Below are positions 9,307 to 12,893 of a stretch of DNA of 64,000 nucleotides, piece after piece; within the stretch, counting starts at the first letter, position 1, and the number at the start of each line of letters is the position of its first letter. The DNA comes from Escherichia coli. GTDB lineage: Bacteria > Pseudomonadota > Gammaproteobacteria > Enterobacterales > Enterobacteriaceae. The notes beneath the pieces were generated by a model, which saw only the letters and a list, made by a program, of their open reading frames with translations, did not search any database and was not told the DNA's origin. The stretch is from NCBI RefSeq assembly GCF_016026235.1, contig NZ_CP065613.1; one strand, 5' to 3'. The position numbers and the translations under genes are program-made.

Positions 9307-9594
9307 ATGCCATCCAGACTGTATAAACAGTTCATCCGTCATCTCGGTGAATCTGAATACATACGAATCCGCATATGGGAAGTGGAGCCTGCTGTATTGG
9401 GTAGCCAGCACAACTACAAATACAGCATGGCTTATGTCGTTGATGGCATGTGTGTGATGCGTTACGACAACGAACGGGGTAAAGGCGATCACAAACACAT
9501 TGGTAGTCAGGAAGTCAGCACCAGCTTTGTCACCATTGAACAACTGCTCGCTGATTTTCTGGCTGACGTTGAATCCATCCGCAGAGGTATCTGA
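9307..9594 (+). CDS. Hypothetical 95-aa protein, first gene of inverted two-gene cassette
   Basis: ORF on plus strand embedded in minus-strand phage operon; stop TGA 9592-9594 one nt before start of next gene. Confidence 0.5.
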   Translation: MPSRLYKQFIRHLGESEYIRIRIWEVEPAVLGSQHNYKYSMAYVVDGMCVMRYDNERGKGDHKHIGSQEVSTSFVTIEQLLADFLADVESIRRGI

Positions 9595-9595
9595 C

Positions 9596-9955
9596 ATGAG
9601 AACCGTAACAATCCGAATCGAGTCAATGGATAATTTCACGGCTGATGTGCTGTCTGCGTTCCAGGAAGCAGCTACCGGAGCAAAAGCAACCAGAGAAAAC
9701 GTTATTTCATTTCCTGACTGGCAAATGATGCATAAGGTACTGACACCAAAACGCATGGACATTCTGATGGCAATGACTGGTGCCGGAGAAATGTCCATCC
9801 GAAAAATTGCAGCCCTGGTTGGACGTGATGTAAAAAGCGTGCATACTGACGTGACCGCACTCATCAGCAACGGTTTACTGGAAAAAAGCGAGCGCGGAAC
9901 GTCATTCCCGTATGACGACATCCACTTTGATTTTACGCTGGGCAAGGCGGCGTAA
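9596..9955 (+). CDS. Putative HTH DNA-binding protein (119 aa), second gene of inverted cassette
   Basis: ATG at 9596; helix-turn-helix-like segment MSIRKIAALVGRDVKSVHTDVTALISNGLL. Confidence 0.5.
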   Translation: MRTVTIRIESMDNFTADVLSAFQEAATGAKATRENVISFPDWQMMHKVLTPKRMDILMAMTGAGEMSIRKIAALVGRDVKSVHTDVTALISNGLLEKSERGTSFPYDDIHFDFTLGKAA

Positions 9956-10172
9956 TTTTTCGTATATACCGTGCCGTCATTCCGGCGGCGCTTCACACTC
10001 CACAAAATCACGCCTGAACAACCACAACGGGCTGAAACATTCGTACGGATAGCCGTCACGCAGGTAAATGACTCGCTGCGTTTCAGACTCCCAGCGTATA
10101 ACGTGGACACGACGCCCCCTTCCGTCACGGAACCAGCGATTGAGGACTTGCATAAATTACCCGTAAACATTG

Positions 10173-10886
10173 TCACACCTTCCAGCCAGTAGCCTGAAAC
10201 AGGCCCATTCTCGGGTGATACCAGCGGGTACCACGCTGAACGGCACCACACATCATGTGATGAAACGCCTTCAGAAACGGTTCCACAGCAACAATTTCAC
10301 GACGTGCCAGTAATCCATCTGGCGTCAAAAATTCATGAGTGTCTGTCGGGATGTTGTATGCATTTACAAGCGTGCGACATTTCGCATCTGACATACCGGT
10401 TTTTGCTTTCAGCTGGCGATATCCGGCATAGCCCTCTCGAATGGTACCCTTTTTGATTTGCTCAACTGTTTCGGCTACGTGGCTGATTTTTTCTTCCACC
10501 TGAGTGATCCGTTTCTGCTGACGAACAGCCTCGAGCGCCATTGCGGCCACCATTTCGATTTCGCTCATTGGTTTGCGGATCTGTTCTTCCAGTTCGCGCC
10601 AGCGATCTACCAGGCGAGCAGTGAATTCAGGACAGAGCTGTGCGACGACAATGATGCTGTCGCGCTTACCTTGTTCTCCTTCAAACAGGTAATGCTCATA
10701 TTGAACTTTAAAACCTAAGTTATTGATTCTTTCGGAAACCTCAATTTGAGGAGACCGGACAACGCCACCTTTGGCTAATGTTTCAATAGTGCGTTTCACA
10801 TTGTCATGACGCTTACCCACCAGTTCTGCGATCTCAACGCTGGTCATGGATGCTTTGTCGTTAAAAATTGCGGTGTTCACTGCCAT
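10173..10886 (-). CDS. Phage antirepressor/regulatory protein (Rha/KilA-type N-domain with C-terminal domain)
   Basis: Start MAVNTAIFNDKASMTSVEIAELVGKRHDNVKRTIETL preceded by AAGGAG; N-terminal pRha-like motif. Confidence 0.6.
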   Translation of the reverse strand: MAVNTAIFNDKASMTSVEIAELVGKRHDNVKRTIETLAKGGVVRSPQIEVSERINNLGFKVQYEHYLFEGEQGKRDSIIVVAQLCPEFTARLVDRWRELEEQIRKPMSEIEMVAAMALEAVRQQKRITQVEEKISHVAETVEQIKKGTIREGYAGYRQLKAKTGMSDAKCRTLVNAYNIPTDTHEFLTPDGLLARREIVAVEPFLKAFHHMMCGAVQRGTRWYHPRMGLFQATGWKV

Positions 10887-10999
10887 CTCCTTACGGATAA
10901 ATTCTTTTAAGATTCCGCACATTCGTACTTGTTGGTGCCGAACCTTCCTTCAGTTATCCTTTTGATCCCTATAAACAAAAGAACCAAAGGAGGTTCGAC

Positions 11000-11293
11000 A
11001 TGAAAGTTCAGGCCGTTGGTTTATTCTGGTTTCGCGATGCGATTCAGTATCATGAGCTCAAAAATATTTTTACTGATGCTGATGTGCTCTCCGACAGTTA
11101 CACCGAGTGGAAACACGACGCTGAAAAATTGATTAAGCGTGTCGAAAGAAGCGGGCAACGAGTTATTAAAGTTGAAGCGGATACAGCCGAGTTCATCACC
11201 TGGTGTACAAGCGAAGGCATTGGACTCAATGCCGAAGGTAGAATGCAGTTCGCATCCTTTAAGGCTTACCAACAACTTCTCAGCGAACGCTAA
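11000..11293 (+). CDS. Hypothetical prophage protein (97 aa)
   Basis: ATG at 11000 preceded by AAAGGAGG at optimal spacing; protein-like composition; opposite strand to surrounding operon. Confidence 0.45.
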   Translation: MKVQAVGLFWFRDAIQYHELKNIFTDADVLSDSYTEWKHDAEKLIKRVERSGQRVIKVEADTAEFITWCTSEGIGLNAEGRMQFASFKAYQQLLSER

Positions 11294-11363
11294 TGTGATT
11301 GGGGCAATCGAAATTGTTGCCCCATCGTATTTAATAGTTATTTTTTCGCTCATATCACCACCA

Positions 11364-11573
11364 TCACTTCTCATCCTCTGTGTGCGCTAAGCTTGGATGT
11401 GTATATGGAATGTTCGGATCCAGATGGCAGAGAATGGCAACATCCTCCGGAACGCCCCGCGTTTTCCACTTTCCAACTCCCTGACTACCACGAGGCTTTC
11501 CTTTCTTTGGGAACCTGCGGCCAATAGCGGCATTGGTTTTAAATTGAGTTTTTAATATTTCATAAAGGGTCAT
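11364..11573 (-). CDS. Putative Cro-like early regulator (divergent from repressor gene)
   Basis: 69-aa basic ORF transcribed divergently from the cI-like gene across a 110-bp repeat-containing spacer. Confidence 0.4.
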   Translation of the reverse strand: MTLYEILKTQFKTNAAIGRRFPKKGKPRGSQGVGKWKTRGVPEDVAILCHLDPNIPYTHPSLAHTEDEK

Positions 11574-11684
11574 TCTTTAGCCTCACACCGGATACTCTGT
11601 TATCCAAGAATGTTAAACATGAGAATCCAAAGTATCAAGATATTCTGTTACTTTAGTATCAGCAGCCATGAAAGGAGAAGAAAA
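11574..11684. promoter_or_regulatory. Divergent promoter/operator region of prophage immunity switch
   Basis: Spacer between cro-like and cI-like genes containing repeated TCCAAGAAT / TCCAAAGTAT and AGTATCA motifs and AT-rich -10-like hexamers. Confidence 0.4.
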
Positions 11685-12341
11685 ATGAAATCTTTAGGTG
11701 AACGGCTAATCAACGCACGACAAAAAGCTGGGTTAACGCAAGATGCGTTGGCTAAAAAAGCAGGGGTCACCAGAGTTGCAATCAGTAAAGCCGAGCAAGG
11801 CCTTACAAAAAGTTTCAACGGTGACACCCTTTTTAAAGTCGCAGCTGCACTGCAGTGTTCACCGCAGTGGCTTCAGAACGGAGATGAGAAAGGTAAGCAT
11901 TGGGAAAATAATGTTAAGAGTTGCCCCCAGAGGGACACAGCACACTCTTACCCTGTAATTAACTGGGTTCAGGCAGGATTATTCACAACTGCAGGTGATG
12001 ACTACAACATGTATGATCAGGATAACTGGAGGCATTCTGTAAAATACGCTGGTGAGAGGGGGTTCTGGCTGGAAGTGCACGGAGACTCAATGACTTCGCC
12101 TATAGGAATAACATTTCCTGAAGGAATGTCGATCCTTGTCAACCCAGATAAAGAAGTTTTTTCAGGGTGTTACGTCATTGCCAGAAAAAAATCCACCAAT
12201 GAAGCAACATTCAAAAAATATATTTCTGAAATGGGAAAGGCGTTTCTAAAGCCCCTTAATCCACAATACCCAATCATAGAAATGGACAATGATTGCGAAA
12301 TAGTAGGCGTTGTGGTTGATGCCAGATGGGATATTTTCTGA
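11685..12341 (+). CDS. Prophage repressor, cI/LexA-like (N-terminal HTH_XRE + C-terminal S24 peptidase domain)
   Basis: MKSLGERLINARQKAGLTQDALAKKAGVTRVAISKAEQG (HTH) and ...HGDSMTSP...ATFKKY... (Ser/Lys autocleavage dyad); SD AAAGGAG upstream. Confidence 0.8.
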   Translation: MKSLGERLINARQKAGLTQDALAKKAGVTRVAISKAEQGLTKSFNGDTLFKVAAALQCSPQWLQNGDEKGKHWENNVKSCPQRDTAHSYPVINWVQAGLFTTAGDDYNMYDQDNWRHSVKYAGERGFWLEVHGDSMTSPIGITFPEGMSILVNPDKEVFSGCYVIARKKSTNEATFKKYISEMGKAFLKPLNPQYPIIEMDNDCEIVGVVVDARWDIF

Positions 12342-12443
12342 CCAGATACAAAATACAAAAAGAAACCTAAGTATCAAAAACACTTGCAACACCTTGATAC
12401 CTTAGTTACCATAAAACAAAGTTCGTAACTGAGGTATCATCTC

Positions 12444-12893
12444 ATGATCAATAAAGCTACAACTCTTGACTGTCTCGAAGAACTGAAAAACCTCGGCAGC
12501 CTCATTACACTAATAGCAAAAGCAACGGCAGATGCTACGCTCTCTAGCGATATAGAGTCATGCGCAGGACTGGCATGGGATATGACAAATAGCATATCCA
12601 GAAAGCTATCGTCAGCAATGCTTTTACAGAACAAAAATTCTGCAATCAACAACCGCCTTCGCACCCAACGCGAAGCCTGCGGCTTAACAACAGCCGAACT
12701 CGCCAGGCTGCTCGATCTCGATGAAGAAATTATCATCCAGTGGGAGAGCGGAGAGTATGAACCAACTATCAGTATGCTTATCCCACTGGCAAATATTCTT
12801 GGCTGCGATCCGATGTGGCTGTTAACTGGTGAGGTTACTCCTCCGGAGCAACCAAAAAGTGAGGAGCAGCAACACCATGACGCATCTCAATAA
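12444..12893 (+). CDS. Second HTH_XRE-domain regulator (149 aa)
   Basis: C-terminal segment INNRLRTQREACGLTTAELARLLDLDEEIIIQWESGEYEPTISMLIPLANILGCDPMWLLTGE is a typical XRE helix-turn-helix. Confidence 0.6.
   Translation: MINKATTLDCLEELKNLGSLITLIAKATADATLSSDIESCAGLAWDMTNSISRKLSSAMLLQNKNSAINNRLRTQREACGLTTAELARLLDLDEEIIIQWESGEYEPTISMLIPLANILGCDPMWLLTGEVTPPEQPKSEEQQHHDASQ

What the first reader, a model, noticed from the sequence alone, without database searches (positions are those of the whole stretch)
10995..11380. Fully overlapping antisense ORF pair next to the cro-like gene
A 97-aa plus-strand ORF with an excellent SD (AAAGGAGG) is almost completely overlapped by a 117-aa minus-strand ORF that begins at the cro-like stop codon. 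I favour the plus-strand gene on composition and RBS, but the minus-strand ORF occupies the position where a cII-like gene would be expected.
Basis: seen in the sequence. Interest (0 to 1): 0.25.

Follow-up and report, generated by a model that had tools for sequence, protein, structure and literature searches.

The report
Two-strand ORF cassette behind cro
A small, widely conserved accessory gene sits backwards inside a prophage's early (cro) operon, and the opposite strand across it is kept open as a reading frame far more than chance allows, probably so that ribosomes of the cro operon can cross the inverted insert.

Summary
The ORF pair exists as described. The plus ORF (11000..11293, 97 aa) is certainly a gene. 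It matches phrog_4753 over its full length and belongs to a family of about 2,350 clusters at 50% identity. Substitutions fall 53:17:8 on its codon positions 3:1:2, and AlphaFold gives pLDDT 91. The minus ORF is not cII: it has no family, its structure model is poor, and a relative carries a true CII gene further downstream. It is not a chance shadow ORF either. Across deeply diverged lineages the plus gene uses A-ending codons normally (20%) from codon 31 on. The three codons that read as stops on the other strand (TTA, CTA, TCA) occur 0 times in 57 there, against 26% in neighbouring genes. A start codon with a gene-like Shine-Dalgarno follows the upstream gene's stop in nearly all lineages. 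The plus gene's 3'UTR evolves with minus-frame codon periodicity. Related Stx phages have an empty slot in which cro overlaps the next gene by 4 nt. Two unrelated inverted cassettes (phiP27 L13; the window's TumE pair) show the same open antisense frame. My reading is an inverted moron overprinted by a translated bridging ORF of the cro operon. No expression data were available.

The parts
11000..11293 (+). 97-aa conserved accessory gene (phrog_4753; PGAP WP_000867913-type 'hypothetical protein'). It is the protein-coding gene of the cassette.
10986..10993 (+). Shine-Dalgarno AAAGGAGG of the 97-aa gene, 6 nt before the ATG
   Evidence: conserved in relatives
11021..11353 (-). Antisense ORF of 110 aa counted from ATG 11353 (117 aa from ATG 11374). 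It lies codon-on-codon with the plus gene. It is kept open across lineages, and its N-terminal ~25 codons lie in the plus gene's 3'UTR.
11354..11362 (-). SD-like GGTGGTGAT, 4 nt before the minus ATG at 11353 and just after the cro stop (anti-SD duplex -6.2 kcal/mol)
11300..11324 (.). Conserved hairpin (conserved core 23 nt, GGGGCAA..TTGCCCC, ~11301..11323) directly after the plus stop codon. Relatives carry compensatory variants (GGGGAAA/TTTCCCC, GGGGAG/CTCCCC). It is terminator-like on the plus strand, with an imperfect U-tract. On the minus strand it is translated as G-A-T-I-S-I-A-P.
10936..11000 (-). Long conserved hairpin covering the plus gene's SD and start. It is more stable and better paired as minus-strand (cro-operon) RNA: -29.3 kcal/mol and 92% canonical pairs, against 77% on the plus RNA.
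10906..11363 (.). Approximate extent of the inverted cassette. This stretch is absent from Stx-phage relatives, in which cro overlaps the Rha-like gene by 4 nt.
11364..11573 (-). cro-like gene (phrog_4749, no Pfam hit). It is called cro by its position, divergent from the repressor gene.
10173..10880 (-). Rha-family regulator gene, the next gene of the cro operon after the cassette
11685..12341 (+). CI/LexA-type repressor (HTH_3 + Peptidase_S24), divergent from cro

Best explanation
The stretch ~10906..11363 is an inverted accessory cassette (a 'moron') inserted between cro and the next early gene. It consists of a conserved leader, a 97-aa gene and a hairpin. The plus ORF is the conserved protein-coding gene. 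Its product is a small alpha/beta protein of unknown function whose fold resembles the non-DNA-binding C-terminal domain of the Aca2-like protein SO3848. The cro-operon transcript has to cross the cassette in antisense. The antisense frame has been shaped into a translatable ORF, with an SD and ATG right behind the cro stop and all stop codons purged over at least two-thirds of the cassette. In several relatives this ORF runs to the start codon of the next gene. I infer that ribosomes initiating behind cro translate this ORF. That would keep transcription and translation coupled across the insert, avoiding Rho-dependent polarity and preserving the coupling to downstream early genes that exists in insert-free relatives. 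The minus product is not cII and is not a conserved folded protein family, although its N-terminal ~25 residues are under amino-acid-level constraint. Shown here: the plus gene is real, the antisense frame is under selection, and the cassette is an insertion. Inferred: the antisense ORF is translated, and its purpose is to prevent polarity.
For: The plus gene is real. tblastn finds ~30%-identical homologues in unrelated phages, while the minus ORF finds none. The ORF matches phrog_4753 over its full length at E=4e-49. A profile search finds 2,352 clusters at 50% identity. Substitutions between the window and L003 fall 53:17:8 on plus codon positions 3:1:2. AlphaFold gives pLDDT 91.3.

The antisense frame is under selection. 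In 13 lineages, from plus codon 31 to the end, A-ending codons make up 62/315 (20%) in Val/Pro/Thr/Ala/Gly/Arg. TTA, CTA and TCA make up 0/57, against 26% in 80 neighbouring genes (Fisher 6.5e-8) and 8/42 in codons 1-30 (p=7e-4). Eight deeply diverged lineages give a joint probability of 1.1e-6. Every antisense stop seen in cro-side lineages lies at plus codon 32 or earlier.

In-frame minus starts have gene-like SD strength: median -6.2 kcal/mol, against -6.8 for annotated genes and -1.9 for all ATG/GTG. In L080 the minus start overlaps the upstream gene's stop as ATGA, and the ORF ends 3 nt before the next gene. In L003 and L007 it starts 1 nt after the cro stop and its stop overlaps the next gene's start.

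The plus gene's 3'UTR varies with minus-frame periodicity: 248:160:348 on minus positions 1:2:3, permutation p=0.002-0.004. One Ile codon occurs as ATT, ATA and ATC with invariant first and second positions. The sense/antisense codon-usage asymmetry of embedded members lies in the lowest ~10-15% of genes.

The cassette is an insertion. In the empty slot of Stx phages, cro and the Rha-like gene overlap by 4 nt. There are independent replicates. phiP27 L13, in the same slot, is covered by a 248-codon antisense ORF that starts 1 nt after the cro stop. The inverted TumE cassette has 0 antisense stops in one frame, against 7-12 in the other two, both in the window and in a 79%-identical copy.
Against: There are no transcript, ribosome-profiling or peptide data. 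Inside the overlap the minus protein evolves almost freely, at 41-52% identity where the plus protein keeps 75-80%. AlphaFold gives only pLDDT 57 and pTM 0.49. The only minus-ORF homologues are 32 Enterobacterales clusters, and I did not check that they lie antisense to plus-family genes.

In the window itself the minus ORF stops at plus codon 8, leaving about 100-140 untranslated nt before Rha. L083 has a ~220-nt gap after the upstream gene. L091 lacks a minus start. I chose the minus start codons from 1-3 candidates per lineage. The boundary between codons 1-30 and 31-end was set after seeing the data, and the lineages are not fully independent.

Amino-acid conservation of the minus N-terminus is not predicted by a pure 'bridge'. 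Whether this phage has N-type antitermination, which would make polarity irrelevant, is unknown. The contrast with members that sit in other contexts rests on only 2-3 loci (L081, L085, L094).
Confidence: 0.6

Rival explanations
1. The minus ORF is an ordinary untranslated shadow ORF. It stays open only because the codon-on-codon antisense frame of an RNY-biased gene is poor in stops. Only the plus gene has any function.
For: The register is the one known to be poorest in stops, and 17% of 97-codon windows in neighbouring genes are open. The plus gene has 65% purine at position 1 and 59% pyrimidine at position 3. There is no protein family and the fold prediction is poor. PGAP annotates only the plus ORF.
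Against: Stop-generating codons are depleted specifically (0/57) while other A-ending codons are used normally. The joint probability for 8 deep lineages is 1e-6. Starts with gene-like SD are conserved. The plus 3'UTR shows minus-frame periodicity. Unrelated cassettes replicate the pattern.
Confidence: 0.15
2. The minus ORF encodes a functional protein in its own right, for example a small regulator taking a cII-like role in the cro operon. Its active part would be the conserved N-terminal beta-beta-alpha segment (I-x-I-x-Y-D-G-A-T-I-x-I-A-P-I-T-L...). The pair would then be a true dual-coding antisense gene pair.
For: Amino-acid-level constraint is seen in the part outside the plus CDS. The N-terminal motif recurs in all subfamilies, including the 31%-identical Klebsiella clade. 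AlphaFold gives its best confidence (65-76) for residues 1-40. The ORF has operon-like spacing to its neighbours. By eye the motif recalls the AbrB/MazE beta-beta-alpha pattern (from memory only).
Against: No member matches Pfam, including SpoVT_AbrB/MazE. A profile search of the PDB finds nothing. The C-terminal two-thirds evolves without amino-acid constraint and ends at variable points. A relative keeps a separate CII gene. The phiP27 and TumE replicates point to a property of the position rather than of one protein.
Confidence: 0.2
3. The minus ORF is the only real gene and the plus ORF is the artefact.
For: The minus ORF has the operon orientation. The annotators of phage EKP1 called the minus ORF and not the plus one.
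Against: The substitution pattern, 2,352 homologous clusters, family members in other contexts whose antisense frame is broken (L081, stops at codons 39, 71, 78, 94), and pLDDT 91 all support the plus frame.
Confidence: 0.01

Closest known systems
Morons of lambdoid phages (extra genes inserted between conserved neighbours; Hendrix/Juhala concept, from my own knowledge)
   Same: The cassette is present in some relatives and cleanly absent in others. The same slot holds a different gene in phiP27. The cassette carries its own leader and a terminator-like hairpin.
   Different: It is inverted inside an operon that must be read through. No consensus sigma-70 promoter was found. The opposite strand carries a conserved ORF.
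Antisense embedded overlapping genes reported in E. coli (PMC9927249; bioRxiv 10.1101/2020.11.18.388249)
   Same: A long ORF lies fully antisense to an annotated gene. It has its own SD and start, and there is evidence of selection.
   Different: Those cases rest on Ribo-seq and phenotypes of single loci. Here the evidence is comparative: stop avoidance across lineages and three unrelated cassettes. The ORF is an integral part of a phage operon, and the proposed benefit is translatability rather than the protein.
Rho-dependent polarity, and the tR1/nutR region between cro and cII of phage lambda (textbook knowledge; Rho review PMC12360218)
   Same: The same genomic position, just after cro, and the same problem: untranslated RNA behind cro invites Rho termination before the replication genes.
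   Different: Lambda solves it with N antitermination at nutR. Here the proposed solution is a translated ORF. No nut- or put-like element was identified, and Rfam finds nothing.
SO3848 (PDB 2OX6), an Aca2-like regulator (PMC8434428)
   Different: It has no HTH domain and no sequence similarity. Aca2 and YdiL themselves were not among the hits. Function cannot be transferred.
Lambda CII / Phage_CP76 (PF06892)
   Same: Only the position, as the first ORF after cro on the cro strand.
   Different: No sequence match. The relative L010/L011 has a true CP76 gene after the cassette.

Membership tests
phrog_4753 (plus ORF) | Significant full-length match to the family profile | tested here: met
   E=3.8e-49, residues 1-97 on profile positions 1-97 of 97
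CII-type activator (Phage_CP76 PF06892 / lambda CII) for the minus ORF | Sequence match to a CII family profile | tested here: not met
   No Pfam hit for the 117-aa ORF or for any of 19 orthologous minus ORFs. No PHROG or NCBIfam hit.
CII-type activator for the minus ORF | Occupies the single regulator slot after cro, with no other cII present | tested here: not met
   L010/L011 carry a CP76 gene downstream of the cassette in addition to the minus ORF
Moron (inserted accessory cassette) | Present or absent between the same flanking genes in related phages | tested here: met
   Empty slot with a 4-nt cro/Rha overlap in Stx phages; a different gene in phiP27
Moron (inserted accessory cassette) | Own promoter | tested here: inconclusive
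   No consensus sigma-70 site on the plus strand. A ~75-nt conserved upstream block exists.
Moron (inserted accessory cassette) | Own terminator | tested here: inconclusive
   A conserved hairpin (-15 kcal/mol) with compensatory changes is present, but the U-tract is imperfect and not conserved
Functional antisense overlapping gene pair | Purifying selection on both reading frames | tested here: inconclusive
   Plus frame: clear. Minus frame: stop avoidance and codon periodicity only outside the plus CDS, with no amino-acid constraint inside the overlap.
Functional antisense overlapping gene pair | Both ORFs transcribed and translated | not testable with these tools
   No RNA-seq, Ribo-seq or proteomics available. 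SD strength of minus starts is gene-like.
Chance shadow ORF | Openness no greater than expected from codon usage, and lost in diverged homologues | tested here: not met
   0/57 stop-generating codons against 26% background; joint P=1e-6 in 8 deep lineages
Aca2/YdiL/SO3848 regulators (plus protein) | N-terminal HTH DNA-binding domain plus C-terminal dimerisation domain | tested here: not met

The most novel reading that the evidence does not exclude
A general rule for temperate-phage operons. When an accessory cassette is inserted backwards into an early operon that must be read through, selection overprints its antisense strand with a translatable 'bridging' ORF. Start and SD signals appear behind the upstream gene, stops are purged, and the ORF often ends at the next gene's start, so that ribosomes can escort RNA polymerase across the insert. 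Three unrelated cassettes seen here fit this rule: the phrog_4753 gene, phiP27 L13 and the TumE/HVO_A0114 pair. If the rule holds, many long antisense ORFs in prophages are neither noise nor new proteins. They would be structural parts of operons.
Probability: 0.4. Interest if true: 0.8.

Novelty: new variant of a known kind. Interest (0 to 1): 0.6.

Why it matters
Whether long antisense ORFs in bacteria and phages mean anything is a long-running dispute, and annotation pipelines discard them by default. This locus offers a comparative signal that is hard to explain by chance. The stop-generating codons are missing specifically, with an internal control, across lineages that are saturated at synonymous sites. 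It also suggests a concrete, testable reason that does not require a new protein: keeping an operon translatable across an inverted insert. If correct, it explains how phages tolerate backward-facing cargo genes, such as defence or toxin-antitoxin modules, inside essential operons. It links the placement of mobile cargo to Rho-dependent polarity. It also gives gene finders a rule for when an antisense ORF should be kept. Separately, the 97-aa gene represents a large protein family of about 2,350 clusters with a confident fold and no Pfam entry.

Tried and rejected
- **Minus ORF as cII.** No Pfam, PHROG, NCBIfam or PADLOC hit, and a relative has a separate CP76 gene. Rejected.
- **Minus ORF as an AbrB/MazE-type domain.** This was a by-eye resemblance of the N-terminal motif. 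There is no Pfam hit in any of 19 members and no PDB hit with the profile; the only near-hit is a chance match to factor VIII at E~1. Unsupported.
- **Known RNA families in 10000..12600.** None at E<=1.
- **Defence-system assignment of either ORF.** No PADLOC hit.
- **Single-sequence composition or GC3 as a discriminator.** Nearly useless here. Both frames have ~65% purine at position 1. The codon-usage log-likelihood ratio favours the plus frame only mildly, +12 to +16 nats.
- **Coding periodicity of the minus frame in the plus gene's 5' leader.** Absent: 19/18/19 variable columns on the three codon positions.
- **Deciding which strand of phiP27 L13 is coding.** Impossible. The region is an orphan, all copies are 99.9% identical, and the log-likelihood ratio is 0.013 per codon.
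- **A sigma-70 promoter for the plus gene.** None found by consensus scan.
- **Searches that could not be run.** The afdb50 fold library was unavailable.

Full report
**Observation**

The sequence shows a 97-aa plus ORF at 11000..11293, with AAAGGAGG 6 nt upstream of the ATG. A 117-aa minus ORF lies at 11021..11374. The two are in exact codon-on-codon register, so the minus frame can acquire a stop only where the plus gene uses TTA, CTA or TCA. The minus ORF ends at plus codon 8 (TTA).

The surroundings are those of a lambdoid immunity region:
- a CI/LexA-type repressor at 11685..12341 (+), with HTH_3 and Peptidase_S24 domains;
- a divergent 69-aa cro-like gene at 11364..11573 (-);
- the ORF pair;
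- a Rha-family gene at 10173..10880 (-).

The listed minus start overlaps the last 11 nt of cro. A second in-frame ATG at 11353 follows the cro stop by 10 nt and carries an SD-like GGTGGTGAT.

**Which strand encodes a conserved protein**

- RefSeq annotates only the plus ORF, as a hypothetical protein.
- tblastn of the plus product finds ~30%-identical homologues in Klebsiella phage Kp4865-4, phage EKP1 and Burkholderia phage Bcep176. The minus product finds nothing.
- The plus product matches phrog_4753 over its full length at E=4e-49.
- It has 73-97%-identical relatives, mostly 97 aa long, in Serratia, Pectobacterium, Klebsiella and Salmonella.
- A profile search recovers 2,352 clusters at 50% identity, mostly 95-105 aa. 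None has a Pfam domain or a solved relative by sequence.
- Between the window and a Klebsiella-type copy (L003), the 78 differences fall 53:17:8 on plus codon positions 3:1:2. The plus protein keeps 70-91% identity where the antisense translation keeps 41-70%.
- AlphaFold gives pLDDT 91.3 with a beta-alpha-alpha-beta-alpha-alpha fold.
- The 97-aa protein has no HTH.

The plus ORF is therefore a real gene. Its function remains unknown.

**The minus ORF is not cII**

It has no hit in Pfam, PHROG, NCBIfam, PADLOC or the PDB. Its only homologues are 32 Enterobacterales clusters. I did not check whether these lie antisense to plus-family genes. AlphaFold gives pLDDT 57. In L010 and L011 a genuine Phage_CP76 (CII) gene follows the cassette.

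**The minus ORF is not a chance shadow either**

Every homologue that sits behind a cro-type gene keeps the antisense frame open. It runs 172-199 codons in L003, L006, L007, L009 and L010, from inside or just after cro to the start codon of the next gene.

In 80 neighbouring phage genes (89 in the first tally), TTA, CTA and TCA make up about 3.5% of codons. They account for 21% of Leu codons and 23% of Ser codons. Only 3 of 86 genes of at least 60 codons have a fully open antisense frame.

In 13 lineage representatives, from plus codon 31 to the end:
- Val, Pro, Thr, Ala, Gly and Arg four-fold families use A-ending codons in 62 of 315 cases (20%; background 23%).
- Stop-generating codons (CTA/TCA among CTN/TCN codons, TTA among TTR) occur in 0 of 57 cases (background 26%, Fisher 6.5e-8).
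- In codons 1-30 the same class occurs in 8 of 42 cases (p=7e-4).

Eight lineages whose third positions differ by 38-80% give a joint probability of 1.1e-6. In a second subfamily, with 12 more loci, antisense stops again occur only at plus codon 32 or earlier. A family member next to an integrase module (L081) has antisense stops at codons 39, 71, 78 and 94.

The boundary at codon 30 was chosen after seeing the data, and the lineages are related. The depletion is nevertheless clear for the whole gene: pooling both zones gives 8 of 99 such codons, against 26% in neighbouring genes. The internal control also argues against a general codon-usage effect.

**Translation signals**

In 19 of 20 lineages I could name an in-frame ATG or GTG 7-12 codons upstream of the conserved hairpin. 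The motifs GAGG, AGGAG, AAGGGG or GGTGG lie 4-9 nt before it. The start regions fall into about eleven different sequence types.

| Set of starts | Median anti-SD duplex energy (kcal/mol) |
|---|---|
| Candidate minus-ORF starts | -6.2 |
| Annotated gene starts | -6.8 |
| All ATG/GTG in the same loci | -1.9 |

I picked each start from 1-3 candidates per lineage.

Spacing to the neighbouring genes is operon-like:
- L080: the minus start overlaps the upstream gene's stop as ATGA, and the ORF ends 3 nt before the next gene.
- L003 and L007: the ORF starts 1 nt after the cro stop, and its stop overlaps the next gene's start.

There are exceptions. L083 has a ~220-nt gap after the upstream gene, and L091 has no start. 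In the window the ORF stops about 100-140 nt before Rha.

**Constraint outside the plus CDS**

The first ~25 minus codons lie in the plus gene's 3'UTR. Outside the hairpin arms, pairwise differences fall 248:160:348 on minus positions 1:2:3 (permutation p=0.002-0.004). Several codons are ATN with invariant first and second positions, and one of them uses all three Ile codons.

The motif I-x-I-x-Y-D-G-A-T-I-x-I-A-P-[IV]-T-L recurs in all subfamilies. The 23-nt hairpin inside it shows compensatory changes: GGGGCAA/TTGCCCC, GGGGAAA/TTTCCCC and GGGGAG/CTCCCC. Both an RNA structure and a peptide therefore seem to be constrained there.

In the plus gene's 5' leader there is no minus-frame periodicity.

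**The cassette is an insertion**

In Stx phages with an 86%-identical cro, the slot is empty, and cro overlaps the Rha-like gene by 4 nt. In phiP27 the same slot holds an unrelated inverted gene, L13 (223 aa). It is covered by a 248-codon minus ORF that starts 1 nt after the cro stop. None of its 37 Leu and Ser codons is TTA, CTA or TCA. That locus is an orphan, so I could not tell which strand is coding.

In the window itself, the inverted TumE/HVO_A0114 pair (9307..9955, +) has 0 stops in one minus frame, against 7 and 12 in the other two. A 78.7%-identical copy in another prophage again has 0, against 10 and 11, with a 229-codon ORF. Its plus genes show 13:8:38 and 14:12:56 substitutions on codon positions 1:2:3.

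**Mechanism (inference)**

Untranslated, and especially antisense, RNA is the classical substrate of Rho. Lambda protects the stretch behind cro with N and nutR. Both statements are textbook knowledge.

An inverted 450-nt insert would put untranslated RNA between cro and the replication genes. A translated ORF would restore coupling. This explains four observations:
- why openness is selected while the peptide is free inside the overlap;
- why the end point varies;
- why the starts hug the upstream stop;
- why unrelated cassettes behave alike.

It does not explain the conserved N-terminal peptide. A functional small protein therefore remains a live rival. The plus gene's own expression is unresolved. 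No consensus promoter was found, and its SD can be sequestered in a conserved hairpin.

**Verdict**

The pair is more interesting than a shadow ORF. It is a candidate two-strand locus in which the second strand is kept translatable. All evidence is comparative, and no expression data were available.

Noticed in passing
window 8389..10296 (-) over 9307..9955 (+): A 620-aa minus ORF runs antisense through the inverted TumE toxin / HVO_A0114 regulator pair and ends as an ash/Rha-family protein. It has 0 stops in the cassette, against 7 and 12 in the other minus frames. A 78.7%-identical cassette in another prophage (L101 2001..2649) again has a 229-codon antisense ORF.
   Followed up: partly
L098 (phage phiP27) 1022..1768 (-) over 1085..1756 (+): The same cro/Rha slot holds an unrelated inverted gene, L13. 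It is fully covered by a 248-codon antisense ORF that starts 1 nt after the cro stop. Codon usage cannot tell which strand is coding (LLR 0.013 per codon), and the region is an orphan.
   Followed up: partly
window 10936..11000: A conserved long hairpin lies over the plus gene's SD and start codon. RNAalifold finds 21 pairs, 3 of them with compensatory changes. G-U pairs make it valid mainly on the minus-strand (cro-operon) RNA: 92% canonical pairs against 77%. In the window it folds at -29.3 kcal/mol. This ~40-nt block is more conserved than the coding sequence, even in L083 where the protein is only 44% identical. Its function is unknown.
   Followed up: partly
L041 and L044 (IMG/VR E. coli prophages), gene at 3001..3294: Two independent nonsense mutations truncate the 97-aa gene: W37 to stop (G110A) and E36 to stop (G106T). 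The antisense ORF stays intact in both.
   Followed up: partly
L015 (phage EKP1) 3064..3396 (-): The depositors of EKP1 annotated the minus ORF ('hypothetical protein 21') and not the plus-strand family member at 3001..3279. This phage, deposited as an Elizabethkingia phage, has an immunity region that looks enterobacterial.
   Followed up: no
proteins P0018 (506 aa) and P0021 (206 aa): Some members of the 97-aa family occur as two or three tandem copies of the domain in one polypeptide, separated by coiled-coil-like linkers. The family (about 2,350 clusters at 50% identity) has no Pfam entry. Its invariant residues are Y17, D26, W37 and C69.
   Followed up: no
protein P0168 (194 aa): This predicted protein joins the C-terminal half of the minus ORF (98% identical) to a Rha domain (PF09669). 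It suggests that in some E. coli variants the antisense frame reads on into the Rha gene.
   Followed up: no
window 12444..12893 (+): A second HTH protein gene lies directly after the CI-type repressor on the same strand. A counterpart is present in the relatives examined (L001, L002, L012). Its role is not examined.
   Followed up: no
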